Made by a program: the position numbers and the translations under genes. This document shows, one piece after another, positions 21,909-45,363 of a DNA stretch of 64,000 nucleotides (the first letter of the stretch is position 1; every line of letters starts with the position of its first letter). The notes below the pieces were generated by a model. It was not told the DNA's origin. It saw nothing but the letters and a program-made list of their open reading frames with translations, and did no database searches. This DNA comes from Octopus sinensis. Taxonomy: Eukaryota. The stretch is from positions 90,334,001 to 90,398,000 of the forward strand of contig NC_043004.1 of assembly GCF_006345805.1 (NCBI RefSeq), given 5' to 3'.

Positions 21909-22323
21909 CGAGGGGCGTTCAATAAGTAATGCCCCTGACCCACTTCCCATAGCAGTAGAGCAACGAAACTTGGCACAGTTATTAGTCTTTTTCTACATAG
22001 GAACCACCCAGAGTTACGCATTTCTCCCATCGTTTGATGCAGCTCTGGAGACCGTTTTTGTAGAAGACCCCAGCTTGGTCGTCCAACCATGACATGACTT
22101 CAGAAATCAAGGCTGCATCATCTGGGAAACGCTTTCCTTTCAAAAGCAACTTCATGGCTGGGAAGAGGTGAAAATCAGAGGGTGCAAGGTCAGGAGAGTA
22201 GAGGAGATGGGGGATGAGTTCATAGCCACACGCCTGTGCTTCTGATCTGGCGACATGCGAGTTGTGGACTGGAGCGTTGTCCTGCATGAGGAGGATGCCT
22301 TTGCTGATCTTGCCCCACCTCTT
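21909..22323 (-). mobile_element. Mariner (DD34D) element, 3' portion with one TIR
   Basis: TA|CGAGGGGCGTTCAATAAGTAATGC terminus at 21909; transposase C-terminal motifs with 34 residues between the 2nd and 3rd catalytic D. Confidence 0.9.
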
Positions 22324-23238
22324 GCTGCACCTCTTATGTGTCCATAGCTTACACTTGGTGCATCTTATAGAGTTTCTACCTATGCCTTTTCTACAGATTG
22401 AGCAGGGCCATCTACCTGAAGGGATTTGTGGTTTGCCTGCCTTCCTACATATTAGGGCTTTGGTTTTAGCTAGGTTGATTCTAAGGCCCTGAGATTCTAA
22501 CCCTTGTTTCCACACCTGAAACTTCTCCTCCAGTTCTGATAGTGACTCAGCAATTAGAGCAAGGTCATCAGCATAGAGGAGCTCCCAGGGGCATTCTGTC
22601 TTGAATTCCTCCATTATTGCCTGGAGGACTATGATAAATAGGAGGGGGCTGAGGACTGAACCTTGGTGGACCCCTACCTCTACTCTGAATTCTTCAGTGT
22701 ATTCATTGCCAACCCTCACCTTACTAGTAGCATCCCAGTACATGGCTTGCACAGCTCTCACTAACCATTCATCTATCCTTAGTTTCCTCATTGACCACCA
22801 GATAAGGGACCAGGGGACCCTGTCAAAGGCTTTCTCCATGTCAACGAAAGCCAGGTACAGGGGCTTATCTTTGGCTTGGTATTTCTCCTGCAGCTGTCTT
22901 ACCAGAAATATGGCATCAGTGGTACTTTTCCCTGGCACGAAACCAAACTGCATCTCATCCAAGCTGCCTCTCTCCCTAATCAGTTGGGCTATGACCCTTT
23001 CCGTAACCTTCATTACCTGATCCAACAGCTTGATACCTCTGTAATTATTTGTATTTAAAGCGTCACCTTTACCTTTGTAGCAGTTGACTATTATGCTGCT
23101 ACTCCAGTCTTTGGGTATGACTCCTTCGTGCATCACCTGGTTAACTATACAGGTGACTAGGCTATAGCTGACACTGCCAGATATTTTGAGCATCTCTGCA
23201 GTGATTCCTGATTTGCTGGGGGCTTTCCCTGTCTTCAT
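21982..23238 (-). CDS. Chimeric 418-aa ORF: RTE-clade reverse transcriptase plus Cys-rich finger, fused in frame to mariner transposase C-terminal half
   Basis: RT motifs NYRGIKLL, QFGF, FVDMEKAFD, QGSVLSP, YADD, then CSIC..C..C..H..C, then QDNAPVH...YSPDLAPSD (D34D) and the mariner C-terminus RWEKCV..GGSYVEK. Confidence 0.75.
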   Translation of the reverse strand: MKTGKAPSKSGITAEMLKISGSVSYSLVTCIVNQVMHEGVIPKDWSSSIIVNCYKGKGDALNTNNYRGIKLLDQVMKVTERVIAQLIRERGSLDEMQFGFVPGKSTTDAIFLVRQLQEKYQAKDKPLYLAFVDMEKAFDRVPWSLIWWSMRKLRIDEWLVRAVQAMYWDATSKVRVGNEYTEEFRVEVGVHQGSVLSPLLFIIVLQAIMEEFKTECPWELLYADDLALIAESLSELEEKFQVWKQGLESQGLRINLAKTKALICRKAGKPQIPSGRWPCSICRKGIGRNSIRCTKCKLWTHKRCSKRWGKISKGILLMQDNAPVHNSHVARSEAQACGYELIPHLLYSPDLAPSDFHLFPAMKLLLKGKRFPDDAALISEVMSWLDDQAGVFYKNGLQSCIKRWEKCVTLGGSYVEKD

Positions 23239-23251
23239 GCTTCTAATTGCC

Positions 23252-23256
<5 letters not shown>
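22324..23256 (-). mobile_element. RTE-clade LINE fragment (RT domain), truncated at both ends
   Basis: Non-LTR RT motifs; no APE endonuclease; abuts a (TATC)n tract. Confidence 0.9.
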
Positions 23257-23299
<43 letters not shown>

Positions 23300-39997: not shown

Positions 39998-41363
39998 CCT
40001 ACCAATTTCATTCTCAAAGTATTACACTGATCAATTTAGGGCAAGACACTTAAGATAACACACTGAAACCATTCAAGATTATGTGGTTGTGGAGCAAACC
40101 TAATACATAACCATGTGTGTGCTTATGTACACATGCATACCTGCACATAGTTGCTCGTGCATACCAGCACACATACATGTGTATTTACACATATATGTAC
40201 ACATGCACTCACACTCACTAATAAATATCTATTATAAAAGAAAAATGTTATAACATCCACTGTAAACCATACAACTGTGCTAACTGCCTCCACATCTAAT
40301 GAGTTTACAGCTGTTGACCATCCTACATACACAGACATATGCTCTTTCTTTTTATTCTGTTACTAACTTCAGGCTGACATTAATAAATGAATTTTAAAAA
40401 AAAGATAAACAAACATGCTGGGAGTGTGGGTGGGAGATGCATTTTTATTCCTATATAAGATGTTTGTCCTTGAGGTTGAGTTCCTGGACTACCATCTACT
40501 TGGTACTAAGTTCAAATCATGAAAGGGGTACTCCTGAGCAAGGCATTTAATATTCTAATTGCTCCAGTTTGCATGAGTGACTCTATAAAAATAGTCTCTC
40601 TCTCTCTCTCTCTGTACTTCATGACAGTGGTTCCTTGAAGGAAGAAAGGCTAGGCTGGGTGGGCATTCATCAATTACTTGAACAACAAACAAATTATCTC
40701 AAAGAAGCAAGTTAATGGATACAACTATTTGTGGGTGTGGCCATGGATGTGGGTGTGTGTGTGTGTGTGTGTGTTTTGTGTTACTTAGGTGAACTAGAGT
40801 TGGGTGTGGTTTGTAATGATAGTATTGTAGCTAGACTATGAAAAAGTGACAGTGGTGGTGGAAGAGGGGGTTCGTGGGTGGGGGTGGGGGTGGGCTGTTC
40901 TGTTGGTTAGCGACAGTCTGTATAAGGCACATGTAAACTGGGTATAATGCTACATGGTAGGGAGGCATAGTGTAATAAGGTGGGCGAGACATGGAGTATT
41001 GAATGTGGCGGCTGGAGAGACATGTTGAGATATGATCCATTGAATTTGATGCTGTGATTTTGGAATGGATTACACAGGCATTGGGGATTGCGTATTAGTT
41101 TTAGATTAGTAATAGGATGTAGCAGTAAAGATGGGGAATGTGTTTGTTTCGGCCAAAGTGCTTTCTCCCCCACCCCCTGTCTATTTCTTCCTTCTATCTC
41201 TCTCACAACTTGTACAGGTTAACCTTTGCAATACAAACTTTCCTGACATTGCTGCTAGCTTTATAATAATACAGAAACCCTTATTTTAGAGCAGTGGTTT
41301 TCAACTGCTGTCCATATAAAATTTTGTTAAAAACTTATGTGCAATAAACTGGTTATACTTCTA

Positions 41364-41595
41364 GTTAGTTAGTTAATTTTTTGGCTCAAAAAGCAAGGCC
41401 ATGTAGGGGGACATGGAGTTATGTACAGGGTGGTGTTCATGTAAAGAGTTCAGGCCACTTGAGGTCAAGGGAGACTTTGAACCGAGCGGTCATCAGCATC
41501 TTCACCATCTCGTCTGGCAGTTTATTCCATGGATCCGCAACCCGGACGGAGAAAGCCCCCCTCCTTCGATTGAGATGAAATCGTCGCAGATAGAG
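41364..41595 (-). mobile_element. CR1/L2-type LINE 3' end
   Basis: Encodes RRGAFSVRVADPWNKLPDEMV..ARFKVSLDLKW*, (TAAC)n tail, possible TSD cttcta. Confidence 0.8.
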
Positions 41596-41639
41596 CTTCT
41601 AATGCTACACAAAATATTTCAACAATTTTTCAACAAATC

Positions 41640-42126
41640 AAAATAGATGAACATCAATGGAATTTGTATCTTTGTGGTACCAGTGCCGGTGGCACACAAG
41701 AAAATCATCCGAACGTGGCCGTAGCCAGTACCGCATAGACTGGCCTCCGTGCTTTGGGGACGTAACAAACACCATCCGATCGTGGCCGTCCGCCAGCCTC
41801 ATCTGGCACCTGTGTCGGTGGCACATAAAAAACACCATCCGAGCGTGGCCGTTCGCCAGCCTCGTCTGGCACTGTGTCGGTGGCACATAAAAACATCATC
41901 CGAGCGTGGCCGTTCGCCAGCCTCGTCTGGCACCTGTGTCGGTGGCACATAAAATCACCCACTACACTCTCGGAGTGGTTGGCGTTAGGAAGGGCATCCA
42001 GCTGTAGAAACACTGCCAGATCTGACTGGCCTGGTGCAGCCTTTGGGCTCCCCAGACCCCAGTTGAACCGTCCAACCCATGCTAGCATGGAAAACGGACG
42101 CTAAATGATGATGATGATGATGATGA
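41640..42126 (+). mobile_element. Family C element with about five 5' monomers
   Basis: Family C motifs, ~62-bp tandem units. Confidence 0.85.
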
Positions 42127-42381
42127 ATTCCTAACAGTACTCAATCATAAGAATACAATAGGATTTCATGTAAACGTCGAATGGCTGAGGGGGTCCACCC
42201 AAATAAAATAGGAATCAAAGGGGTCCATAGAGAACAAAAATTGTTGAGAGCCGCTGTTTTAGTGTTCATATTTAAATAAAACATTCTATTGTAAATTTTC
42301 CTAAGAACCTTTATATCAGCCACATCCCACATATCAGTTGAATTTTAAGTTATTTTATTTCTAATTATTTTGCAAAATTAA

Positions 42382-42855
42382 AAGGACACAGTAAATGTGT
42401 CGAAGCCGACAGGAACCGTTCGATGCTTCCTAGGGCTAAACAGCGGTGGTTTAATCCTCTACTGTCACGTTAAATTGACAGTATACAACTATTATATCGC
42501 CCCCACCATAGTACATATCTCTATGAGATATTTAGAAATTTAATATTTCTGATTTTGGTGATCAGTGAATATACTTCACTGAAAATTAGATATATATATT
42601 TACGAAGTCGAGACAGATATCTGCAGCTAGCAGGCTTCTGCTACTCTAGACCGATGATGGGCAAAGACCCTGAAACATGCGTGTCTCTAGATGCAGGCCT
42701 AGCTGTTGGGGGTATTTGTCTCCCCTTCGTATATATATAAGGACAGAGGAAAAAATGTGTCGAAGCCATCAGGAAGCGCCAATGCTTCCTAGGGCTAAAC
42801 AGCGGTGGTGCAATCCCCTACTGTCACGTTAGATTGACAGTATACAACTATTATA
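42382..42855 (+). mobile_element. Retrozyme/Penelope-like unit: ~360-bp monomer with ~115-bp terminal redundancy
   Basis: Direct repeat 42382-42496 and 42739-42855 flanking a long hairpin topped by a hammerhead core. Confidence 0.65.
42645..42691 (+). ncRNA. Type I hammerhead ribozyme-like motif (U4C variant)
   Basis: TCTAGA-CCGATGA-T-GGG caaaga CCC-T-GAAA-CA tgcg TG-TC^TCTAGA: helices I, II and III present, GUC cleavage triplet at 42683-42685. Confidence 0.6.
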
Positions 42856-43827
42856 ATTGAAGTTGTGTATTTCATATAAAAATAAAGATGGCCATAGGAG
42901 GGTTAAGGTCTTATAATTTAACATGAACACCGTGCTGCCTTCTTTTATTATGGTCTCTTTGAACAGATTAGCTAACTAATTGCTGGCTTTCTCTATCCTA
43001 CATATTTACCTCCCTTATGTTCATTATGGGCCCCACCTCCACCCACCACCTGTCTTCCTCTGAAGACTTCCCATTTGACTCCTCTCCTTGTCCATAGTTT
43101 ATCTTCAGACTGCAAACACACAGATGTTCAAAGTGAACACCAGCCCCCATCAATTTCACCAACCTGGGCTATTGGTGAATTTATGACCAATAATAATTAG
43201 TGCAGATATTGTCTATCAGATCTGTCATTGCAACTTTTGGACCCATAACATCACTACCGAATACCAACAAGCCAGTGACAGAAAGCTTGTTTCTGTGGTC
43301 CCTAAATCTGCTAGAAATAGCAACCAAATATGTCATGTCTTTAAAAAGGAAGTTCATGCTGGATGTGTTTGAAGAACATCATCAGAAAAAGAGAGAAACA
43401 AATGGTATGGTAAAAACTGCTGTATCAGGTCTGGCATCAATCACATGTTGGGTGTAGAAGAAACCCATTTCTTTGATGCTGTGATATGGGTGTTTCTCTT
43501 TTATATCAATTCTTTAGACTTTGCAGGGTTCACATGATCCTTTGACCATTCTGCCATCTTTAGCAATCTTCTCTTTCAAAAACCCTATCCTTTGAAATAG
43601 CAGTCACATAGTTTAAAGTGTTATATAGGAAAAAAAGAGAAAAAATTGGAAAACGTGTCAGTTTGGATTCAGATCAATTTGAAACAGTGAATTTGTATTT
43701 TAGAGCTAGGGTCTGTCCCAGGTGTGTTGGTATCAAAACAGTTAACTCTGAAATTGCTCTACCTACCCAGACACTGGAGATAGAAGCAACTTTCACAAAG
43801 GGGCTTGTTACCTCCTGTGGATATATG

Positions 43828-44059
43828 TATTTTTCTTGTTATTGCCCACAAGGGACTAAACATAGAGGGGACAAACAAGGACAGACAAACGGATTAAGTC
43901 GATTATATTGACCCCAGTGCGTAACTGATACTTATTTAATCGACCCGGAAAGGATGAAAGGCAAAGTCAACCTCGGCGGAATTTGAACTCAGAACGTAGC
44001 GGCAGACGAAATACCGTTAAGCATTTCCCCCGGCATGCTAACGATTCTGCCAGCTCACC
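43828..44059 (-). mobile_element. SINE family B with 18-bp TSD
   Basis: TSD acctcctgtggatatatg at 43810-43827 and 44060-44077. Confidence 0.9.
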
Positions 44060-45363
44060 ACCTCCTGTGGATATATGGTAGCTAGAAAACTCACTGTTGT
44101 TGCTATTGTTTAGCCCCGGGTCACTCTCGATCCTGACATAATGCATTCAAATTTTGGCACAAAACTAGCAAGTTCGTGGTAGGGGGATAAGTTGATTACA
44201 TCAACTCCAGTTTGCAACCGGTACTTATTTTATCAACCCCTGAAAGAATGAAAAGCAAAGTCAAACTCAGTGGAATTTGAACTCAGAATATAGAGATGAG
44301 CAAAATTCCACTAAGCATTTTGTCTGATGTGCTAATGATTCTGCCACCTCACTGCCTTTGATCCTGATATAATCAAGTGTTTCCTCTGTGATCTTCAGTT
44401 TTCTTTCTTGTACAGTGTGTCCTAGGACTGCATTATGTGTCCTTCATTTTTTTATGACGAGAAAGTGTGGCTTAAAGTTGATTTGGCTACTATTTCTTAC
44501 AGATAAAGTGACCACGAAAAGGTTGAGTGGTTGTAATCTACTGGTGTTACATTGAAATCAGCAGTTAATCATCCATTGATGGATACCTCTGACAGTGGGA
44601 AGTTAATTAATCCTCAGTAGGACAGACTACAGTTGGATTGATTAGAGAGTATTCTATTTGTAGATTTTGTCTTCATACATGCCGTTAAGATATTAGGATC
44701 TGTTGCTACCTCCCACTCTCTGGTTATCTGTCTCTATCCCACATAGACAAATCAATAAATTATGCAATGTGATCATCAGTAAAATAATTCAATAATGTTC
44801 TGTGGTAGTTTCAGTTCAGTTATTACAATAATACCATATCAGTGTTGTATATTAGTATATATATACAGACTAGTTTATATCACTATATCAGAGTTGCATA
44901 TATATAAGCATAGACTAAGGGAAATGTATCTCCACCACTTTCAACAATGACTTTTCAGTTTGGCCGACTGAACTACTTGCTTATTGAATTATCTTGTAAT
45001 TGGATGAGTATTCCACAGACATATGTATCCTTAATGTAAATCATGGAATGGGTCAGTGTGACACGATATGGGACAAAGCTGGAACTTTCTGATATGATTC
45101 ATTTGATTGACCTCTATGTAATTTCGATTTGCCCAGTTACATTTACAAAACTTCAGTTGACTTGAGACTAGGGTAAATGACTCTTTACCCAAGATGCTAT
45201 ACTGTGGAATTGAACCTGGGACTTCGATGTGAGCAGCCATGCTGTAATTGTATATTTTGCATATAATTTAATAACTATTTATTCTAACATATCAAGCATC
45301 AGTGGTATGTGCTAACTTGCAACACATGTATTTTGTATGCGTATGTGTGTGTATGTATGCGTA

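What the first reader, a model, noticed from the sequence alone, without database searches (positions are those of the whole stretch)
42382..42855. Hammerhead-bearing ~360-nt retrozyme/Penelope-like unit in an octopus-type intron
Seen: a ~115-bp segment repeats with a 360-bp period (42382-42496, 42739-42855). Between the copies, 42590-42738 folds into a long imperfect stem (tacgaag/cttcgta, gagacagatatc/ggtatttgtctc, cagctag/ctagctg, tctaga/tctaga). The stem is capped by a type I hammerhead core CCGATGA-[GGG caaaga CCC]-GAAA-[CA tgcg TG]-TC^ with a short, near-palindromic helix III. The repeated segment has its own hairpins (aggaagc/gcttcct, tgtca/tgaca), and the two copies differ mostly in the loops. 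Established: metazoan non-LTR retrozymes and Penelope pLTRs are tandem or partially tandem units with type I hammerheads, and can yield self-cleaved circular RNAs. Inference: this is a 1.3-mer insertion of such a non-coding circular-RNA retroelement, sense to the host transcript. This copy has a U4C change in the core and may be inactive.
Basis: partly seen in the sequence, partly recalled or inferred. Interest (0 to 1): 0.8.

Follow-up and report, generated by a model that had tools for sequence, protein, structure and literature searches.

The report
Ribozyme mini-retroelement with its own parasite
This 474-base stretch is a truncated copy of a non-coding repeat found at hundreds of places in the genome; it carries a variant hammerhead ribozyme, is likely copied by Penelope-type retrotransposon enzymes and likely read from an snRNA-type promoter, and has one fixed site where a second retrotransposon inserts, likely because it is the transcription start.

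Summary
Repeat, long stem and hammerhead-like core are real. The stretch is a 5'-truncated 1.3-mer of a dispersed ~360-bp family with Penelope hallmarks: partial tandems, inverted 5' arms, two 3' ends ~56 nt apart (148 of 176 arms). U4C is not this copy's damage: 31 of 31 cores and 178 exact genome matches carry C4; sister families keep U4; helices co-vary. Tandem two-ribozyme copies are rare, and the window's two repeats differ by a shared variant, which points to a linear dimer template rather than a monomer circle. New: a motif found at -57..-60 in U1/U2 promoters sits at -58 from 42619. At that site an L1/Tx1-like LINE and an ORF1-only partner insert, in several diverged hammerhead families and at +1 of U1 and U2 genes; the composite is then copied Penelope-style. 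Cleavage, circles, transcription, the autonomous partner and the claimed intron were not shown.

The parts
42382..42855 (+). Whole insertion: 5'-truncated 1.3-mer of the ~360-bp hammerhead unit (subfamily A)
   Evidence: 64 matches from 40 scored of 3264 first-look candidates; best copies 87-95% identical, median 92% (29 loci); AT-rich flanks, at most a 4-bp AATT duplication
42382..42496 (+). 3' part of the upstream unit (first copy of the repeated segment)
   Evidence: differs from the second copy by a 2-nt variant common in the family, in the same order as in L004
42498..42553 (+). 'Tail' segment: lies between the family's two preferred 3' ends; internal in this copy
   Evidence: 3' ends of 176 arms: 81 at unit position 105-119, 67 at 165-179
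42561..42580 (+). PSE-like promoter motif (ATCAGTG at 42561-67, -58 from 42619); function inferred
   Evidence: ATCAGT at -57..-60 in 27 of 27 U1/U2 upstream regions; 53 of 127,956 window positions score as high
42593..42739 (+). Long imperfect stem that carries the hammerhead
   Evidence: outer helix has 9 of 24 pairs with changes on both sides
42619..42635 (+). Predicted transcription start (42619) and target site of the LINE and its ORF1-only partner; empty in this copy
   Evidence: 13-19-bp duplications beginning at the equivalent base in L107, L199, L200; leader evidence
42645..42691 (+). Type I hammerhead-like motif: helix I 6 bp, core with C4, U.U at 10.1/11.1, 3-bp helix II with hexaloop, predicted cut after C 42685
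   Evidence: activity untested
42675..42684 (+). Palindromic helix III, predicted dimerisation site
   Evidence: 10-bp self-duplex, -12.5 kcal/mol; stays palindromic in sister families
42739..42855 (+). 3' end of the unit; stops at the first of the two preferred 3' ends (no tail), next bases ATT

Best explanation
The stretch is a 5'-truncated 1.3-unit copy of a dispersed, protein-free ~360-bp repeat with a variant hammerhead motif, likely mobilised by a Penelope-like element's reverse transcriptase and endonuclease and likely transcribed from an snRNA-type promoter inside the unit. Shown: copy number, Penelope-type anatomy, two preferred 3' ends, co-varying helices, C4 fixed in this subfamily, promoter-like motif at -58, LINE insertions at one site. 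Inferred mechanism: rare tandem master copies are transcribed by Pol II from the base equivalent to 42619; the RNA runs through two units; the Penelope enzyme nicks AT-rich DNA and starts copying at one of two internal sites that bracket the tail, often from both DNA ends, giving inverted arms. The ribozyme is likely slow and needs a dimer through its palindromic helix III, so most templates stay uncut and the core is copied intact; occasional double cleavage and ligation could give circles that rebuild masters. An L1/Tx1-like LINE and an ORF1-only partner insert at the unit's start, likely use its promoter, and are sometimes carried along. The window copy has one promoter and one core and is likely a dead end.
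For: Anatomy: (148 of 176 arm ends at two sites; flanks often (TA)n), matching the tail, inversion and AT-rich cleavage described in PMC8557442 and PMC11167929. No ORF in the unit; the period recurs in families A, B, C and D, E. Structure: 93.5% of cells paired against 89.5% shuffled and 27-46% slid; 14 of 43 pairs change on both sides, 3 of 6 in helix I, 1 of 3 in helix II (44 of 83 sequences). C4. Promoter. Start site: a LINE in a U2 gene carries a 14-nt leader equal to the start of hammerhead family D; another carries an extra G plus the leader of a different A subtype (L116); another carries the first 16 nt of U1. LINE site: 21 of 30 ORF1-only and 16 of 20 LINE 3' ends sit 23-36 nt before a hammerhead core. 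Hitch-hiking: both inverted arms begin inside LINE-partner sequence in L112 and L113. Linear template. Uncut RNA is the main substrate for an Anolis Penelope enzyme in vitro. Autonomous RT-GIY-YIG frames of 775-781 aa exist in this genome.
Against: No autonomous element with homologous ends: none in 30 + 12 GIY-YIG loci nor in the 28 further loci (one, L049, holds a separate inserted copy). No direct evidence of transcription, start site, cleavage or circles. 5' ends do not pile up at the cut site (3 of 176 arms in the bin 300-309). The monomer hammerhead fold lies 4.5 kcal/mol above the best fold. Helix III is nearly invariant, so it gives no covariation; related sequences can beat the shuffle control; the structure was drawn from the window copy. 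The PSE-like motif overlaps an RNA hairpin, the 27 U1/U2 regions are mostly array paralogues, U6 upstream regions lack it, and 4 of 20 measurable LINE junctions lack it. In subfamily A the junction stays on the same bases while the spacing drifts from -56 to -61.
Confidence: 0.7

Rival explanations
1. Classical non-LTR retrozyme: an active ribozyme cuts multimeric transcripts to monomers, these close into ~360-nt circles, and the circle is the usual template for new copies, including this one.
For: Unit size, type I motif and strong self-pairing fit PMC7229834. The outer stem's 5' arm lies upstream of the predicted start yet co-varies, so it was selected in multimeric or circular RNA. L018 is a 2.1-mer that starts upstream of its first promoter motif. 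In 12 of 15 partial tandems the two repeats are of one subtype. A natural U4C hammerhead supports viroid infectivity despite low in vitro activity (PMC3088659).
Against: Only 2 of 97 loci had two same-strand cores and one of them is a local duplication. In the window, L004 and L029 the two repeats differ by common variants, which a monomer circle read twice cannot give. Two core deviations. No 5'-end pile-up at the cut site.
Confidence: 0.15
2. The unit is the left-over pseudo-LTR of an autonomous Penelope-like element that I did not find; copies are short because of 5' truncation.
For: All Penelope hallmarks are present; most copies of such elements are truncated; GIY-YIG searches scored only 150 of 5029 and 150 of 5718 candidates.
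Against: The unit's 3' end and tail run straight back into the same unit, leaving no place for an ORF. Every long insert I opened between two unit halves was LINE or ORF1-only sequence bounded by a target duplication.
Confidence: 0.08
3. The ribozyme is vestigial in subfamily A, the promoter-like motif is incidental, and the LINE picks its site by loose DNA sequence or by pairing of read-through RNA, not by the promoter.
For: C4 plus U.U or A-U at 10.1/11.1 in 29 of 31 cores, G-C in none. Family D's first 12 nt match U1 and U2 at 9 of 12 each (rows), enough for sequence-led choice. L303 and L201 hold full-length inserts with no promoter motif upstream. Ribozyme mutants do not block insertion in vitro.
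Against: The rest of the core and the helices stay conserved and co-vary across families ~75% alike. C4 recurs in family G and in L154. The ORF1-only partner enters targets that share little sequence (A, B, D, E, G, U2, a TATA promoter). In family B the junction shifts 3-5 nt, which restores the spacing to the motif. Leaders mark the site as an RNA 5' end.
Confidence: 0.2

Closest known systems
Metazoan non-LTR retrozymes (Cervera and de la Pena 2020, PMC7229834; Li et al. 2026, 10.64898/2026.07.22.740005)
   Same: 150-450-bp non-coding unit, type I hammerhead with 6-bp helix I and palindromic helix III, strong self-pairing, proposed dependence on Penelope-like elements.
   Different: Dispersed single cores and inverted pairs, hardly any tandem arrays; non-canonical cores that the published descriptors and Rfam would miss; explicit tail and inversion signatures; this copy points to a linear template; circles untested.
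Pseudo-LTRs of EN+ Penelope-like elements (PMC4209133, PMC8557442, PMC11167929)
   Same: Partial tandems, inverted 5'-truncated arms, tail at one end, two internal 3' ends, AT-rich and (TA)n targets, hammerhead in the repeat.
   Different: No ORF; tail ~56 nt instead of 30-40; full three-helix motif rather than the minimal one; no homologous autonomous element found; promoter motif upstream of the start instead of downstream.
Newt satellite 2 (snRNA-type Pol II promoter; seen only second-hand in PMC2220036, original not held)
   Same: A repeat unit with its own snRNA-type promoter; that satellite 2 bears a type I hammerhead is from PMC7229834 and recall.
   Different: Satellite arrays in amphibians against dispersed Penelope-type insertions here; promoter here inferred from sequence and LINE leaders only.
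Target-specific Tx1 LINEs: Keno, Tx1 of Xenopus, Tx1-Mar, SINEU (PMC4494074); ORF1-only 'half-L1' elements (name recalled)
   Same: APE-RT-zinc finger LINE with CCHC ORF1, target duplications, insertion into U2 genes and other mobile elements, tandem insertion at one site, U1/U2-derived heads.
   Different: Here the site is +1 of U1 and U2 and the equivalent base of hammerhead units of unlike sequence; the snRNA head is explained as the target duplication transcribed from the host promoter; composites are copied by a Penelope-type route. Keno's site inside U2 is recalled as further downstream. Clade not tested by tree.
Natural hammerhead core variants (PMC3088659)
   Same: U4C and U3-A8 are known natural variants with lower or kept activity.
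   Different: There U4C is one viroid case; here it is fixed in a family with at least 178 exact copies and recurs in two other families.

Membership tests
Non-LTR retrozyme | Non-coding unit of 150-450 bp with a type I hammerhead | tested here: met
   period 357-360, motif at 42645-91
Non-LTR retrozyme | Occurs as tandem dimers to multimers, each unit with a ribozyme | tested here: not met
   79 single, 16 inverted pairs, 2 same-strand pairs of 97 loci; true tandems seen: L018, L113; collapsed arrays cannot be excluded
Non-LTR retrozyme | Self-cleavage and accumulation of circular RNA | not testable with these tools
   only contigs of runs guessed to be RNA were available
Autonomous EN+ Penelope-like element | ORF with RT and GIY-YIG between the repeats | tested here: not met
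   no such frame in or between units
Penelope-type insertion (non-autonomous) | Partial tandem plus inverted 5'-truncated arm | tested here: met
   the window copy itself has no inverted arm
Penelope-type insertion (non-autonomous) | Tail: two preferred 3' ends; AT-rich targets | tested here: met
   81 + 67 of 176 arm ends
Penelope-type insertion (non-autonomous) | End homology with an autonomous partner | tested here: inconclusive
   none in the sampled GIY-YIG loci; small sample
Canonical type I hammerhead | Three helices supported by covariation | tested here: met
   helix I 3 of 6, helix II 1 of 3 pairs with both-side changes; helix III 99% paired but nearly invariant
Canonical type I hammerhead | Core with U4 and G10.1-C11.1 | tested here: not met
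   C4 in 31 of 31, G-C in 0 of 31; no Rfam hit
snRNA-type (PSE) promoter | Motif shared with U1/U2 genes at about -58 | tested here: met
snRNA-type (PSE) promoter | Start site mapped; distal element; SNAPc dependence | not testable with these tools
   only indirect leader evidence; distal element not looked for
Tx1 clade LINE (the inserting element) | APE + RT + zf-RVT ORF2, CCHC ORF1, target duplication, target preference | tested here: met
Tx1 clade LINE (the inserting element) | RT phylogeny within Tx1 | not tested
   35 of 36 homologues unnamed; the one named is a green-algal reverse transcriptase at 26%; no tree built

The most novel reading that the evidence does not exclude
A four-layer system: Penelope-like enzymes spread several families of promoter-bearing mini-elements whose hammerheads are each tuned down by a different core change; an L1/Tx1-like LINE and its ORF1-only partner find their site by the snRNA-type transcription start itself rather than by target sequence, use that promoter, and ride the mini-element's transposition. 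This would be a start-site-seeking LINE, and a direct explanation of U1/U2-headed LINEs and SINEs.
Probability: 0.45. Interest if true: 0.82.

Novelty: new variant of a known kind. Interest (0 to 1): 0.64.

Why it matters
Hammerheads in Penelope-type repeats are a known kind, so the bare finding is ordinary. Three things lift it. Whole families with non-canonical cores are invisible to Rfam and to published descriptors, so censuses of animal ribozymes would undercount, and natural U4/C4 sister families give a ready test of whether slow cleavage is selected. The copies let one ask whether retrozyme-like units travel as circles or linear dimers. And a LINE that lands at +1 of U1, U2 and ribozyme units of unlike sequence would be a natural model of promoter-directed integration and would answer how snRNA-headed retroelements arise and are transcribed, a question left open in PMC4494074.

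Tried and rejected
Rfam: no hammerhead in 40000-45000 at E 10 nor in 19 loci at the gathering score, where only U2 was found. GIY-YIG fragment beside the unit in L024/L025: belongs to another abundant Penelope-like family with its own 3' end; rejected as the partner. Inverted core pairs 2-3 kb apart, first taken for full-length autonomous copies: they hold LINE-derived inserts. Autonomous partner: not found. 5' ends at the cut site: no excess. Pol III reading: the only T4 run is at 42553, the tail end, but U6 upstream regions lack the motif and the LINE begins with a T run, so Pol II is preferred; Pol III is not excluded. Expression: no RNA holder listed on record; contigs of four runs guessed to be RNA cover most bins but show no start, end, strand or level; no evidence either way. 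Host gene: none found. Earlier scan notes: none. Protein atlas: generic LINE clusters only. Rows left out: L202 and L214 from the promoter profile; 39 of 83 stem sequences from the alignment; L123 unmeasurable; 8 of 140 frames. The tallies include the query loci and one local duplicate pair (L130/L131), and the ORF2 query came from a copy inside a hammerhead unit, which favours its subfamily. Of 31 junction matches I opened 6 besides those already held: 4 had LINE or partner sequence, 2 were chance, in line with the 3 control matches. Papers not held: Lunse 2017, Coats 1994. Repbase could not be searched; these families may be deposited there. Supplements were not read; those of PMC4209133 and PMC7229834 could list such motifs.

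Full report
Observation. The direct repeat, the long stem and the hammerhead-like core are in the sequence as described. The stem folds at -66.7 kcal/mol, z -6.2, the monomer at z -8.8. Rfam does not see the motif. I found no exon in the window, so the intron and its orientation are unverified.

A dispersed family. A search of the window's genome (2.72 Gb) gave 3264 first-look candidates, 40 scored, 64 matches; 29 loci match the monomer at 87-95%. Copies are partial tandems, often with an inverted 5'-truncated arm. Of 176 distinct arms, 81 end at unit position 105-119 and 67 at 165-179, mostly against (TA)n or other AT-rich DNA; 5' ends are scattered (whose row list was cut in the middle; the tallies were shown). 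This is the tail-and-inversion signature of Penelope-like elements (PMC8557442, passages), which PMC11167929 traces to two internal start sites of reverse transcription after cleavage of AT-rich DNA (parts 1-2 of 4). The window copy ends at the first site, followed by ATT. The unit's end runs back into itself, so there is no room for an ORF. Autonomous RT-GIY-YIG frames of 775-781 aa exist in the genome, but none sampled shares ends with the unit.

The core. All 41 rows and 31 of 31 distinct cores from the loci have C at position 4. Exact strict patterns give 178 matches with C4 and 72 with T4, controls 0. Of the 72, I count 17 with this subfamily's loop; C4-G5 is a CpG, so these likely are decay products (inference). 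The other 55 are a sister family B; a third family C with a shorter loop gives 228 matches, 3 of the first 100 listed with C4. On 44 of 83 stem sequences from A, B and C, 93.5% of cells pair, 14 of 43 pairs change on both sides, and slid controls fall to 27-46%; relatedness inflates such counts. More distant families found through LINE flanks, without any core filter, also deviate: U3.G8 (D, F), U3-A8 (E), C4 (G and L154). PMC3088659 (passages) reports U4C as a viroid variant, slow in vitro but viable; it was the only paper for 'hammerhead' plus 'U4C'. PMC4209133 (parts 1-2 of 4) describes 6-bp helix I, palindromic helix III, dimer folding and low activity for such motifs; PMC6765202 (passages) agrees. 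The monomer fold here is 4.5 kcal/mol above the best fold. I infer a slow, dimer-dependent ribozyme.

Circle or linear template. Retrozymes are defined as tandem arrays (PMC7229834, passages; 10.64898/2026.07.22.740005, parts 1-3 of 5, which also argues that they derive from Penelope repeats). Here 79 of 97 loci have one core, 16 an inverted pair, 2 a same-strand pair; one of those is a local duplication, and the true tandems are L018 and L113. In 15 partial tandems the two repeats are of one subtype in 12; in the window, L004 and L029 they differ by common variants, the window and L004 in the same order. A monomer circle read 1.3 times would give identical repeats, so this copy likely came from a linear dimer transcript with the second core uncut. 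Circles remain plausible for rebuilding masters: the outer stem co-varies although its 5' arm lies before the predicted start, and L018 begins upstream of its first promoter motif.

The second parasite. Loci with cores 2-3 kb apart held a 1.66-kb element with one CCHC-knuckle ORF, bounded by a 15-bp duplication that starts at the base equivalent to 42619. Its partner is a 5.4-5.5-kb LINE with APE, RT and zf-RVT in frames up to 1134 aa in the copies opened. Selected by their own sequence only, 21 of 30 ORF1-only and 16 of 20 LINE 3' ends lie 23-36 nt before a hammerhead core; 4 more are tandem inserts behind a target leader, 1 is at U2, 8 are elsewhere. Of those 8, one precedes a long-stem hammerhead, one lies 29 nt after a TATA box, one has its 5' junction in family E. 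Inserts stand at +1 of two U2 genes and one U1 gene. In L112 and L113 both inverted arms begin inside ORF1-only sequence, so RNA made of LINE partner plus unit was copied by the Penelope-type route.

The promoter. ATCAGT lies at -57 to -60 in 27 of 27 U1 and U2 upstream regions, mostly paralogues, and at -58 from 42619; a profile from them ranks the window site among the top 53 of 127,956 positions. The heptamer, with at most one mismatch, lies at -56 to -61 in 16 of 20 measurable LINE 5' junctions. Three full-length inserts carry a foreign leader at their 5' end: family D's first 14 nt inside a U2 gene, an extra G plus another A subtype's start (L116), and U1's first 16 nt at an unrelated site. 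The simplest reading is that LINE RNA starts at the target's first base, so that base is a transcription start. A precedent for an snRNA-type promoter in such a repeat is newt satellite 2, seen only as cited in PMC2220036 (passages). Against pure promoter targeting: two inserts lack the motif upstream, subfamily A keeps its junction while the spacing drifts, and family D's start resembles both U1 and U2.

What is known. Tx1 LINEs that target U2 or other mobile elements, some with U1/U2 heads of unexplained transcription, are described in PMC4494074 (passages). Searches (listings only) showed no paper on cephalopod hammerhead elements or on a LINE that targets snRNA-type starts; subscription journals and Repbase were not covered. 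The LINE's clade was not tested by tree.

Verdict. The feature is real and works like a non-autonomous Penelope-type element; it fails the tandem-array test for a classical retrozyme and the core test for a canonical hammerhead. New variant of a known kind; interest 0.64, carried by the family-wide core variants, the promoter motif and the start-site-seeking LINE. All function is inferred from sequence.

Noticed in passing
L194, L195, L196, L198-L201, L329 (G000:C3:19722500-19732499 and others): L1/Tx1-like LINE, 5.4-5.5 kb, with open ORF2 frames of 1134 aa in two copies, inserting at +1 of U1, U2 and hammerhead units, with no poly(A) tail after its AATAAA; tandem inserts at one site.
   Followed up: yes
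L107:1817-3474; L106; L330: ORF1-only non-autonomous partner (CCHC knuckle, ORF1 about 28% like the LINE's) sharing the target; L106 also holds a derivative joining the ORF1 start to the ORF2 end.
   Followed up: yes
L153/L196 (D), L117/L289 (E), L152 (F), L134 (G), L154, L294, L281: At least six further hammerhead-bearing repeat families with different core variants; two turned up by chance in 12 loci of 8 kb fetched for other reasons, so they are abundant. Rfam missed those tested.
   Followed up: partly
L295:830-940: ORF1-only insert 29 nt after a TATA box with a CCAAT box upstream, i.e. at a likely ordinary Pol II start; gene not identified.
   Followed up: no
L281-L288: Young autonomous Penelope-like families with a 781-aa RT-GIY-YIG frame preceded by an overlapping 479-aa frame, ending at (TA)n, with no hammerhead found by my pattern; a two-frame layout is unusual for these elements.
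   Followed up: no
L031-L060: A very abundant GIY-YIG family (5718 candidates) whose 3' end has a CTGATGA half-core far from its GAAA half and ends in (TAA)n/(ATT)n.
   Followed up: no
L225-L236 (G000:C1:141.92-141.95 Mb): A tandem array of variant U6 genes with TATA at -30 and an octamer-like motif but without the ATCAGT motif of U1/U2 promoters.
   Followed up: no
window 41683-42125 and 43895-44373: Common SINE-like repeats flank the element, one with 61-63-bp internal repeats ending in (GAT)n.
   Followed up: no
window 21982-23259 (-): 425-aa frame that reads by eye as a LINE RT fragment joined to a mariner-like transposase end.
   Followed up: no
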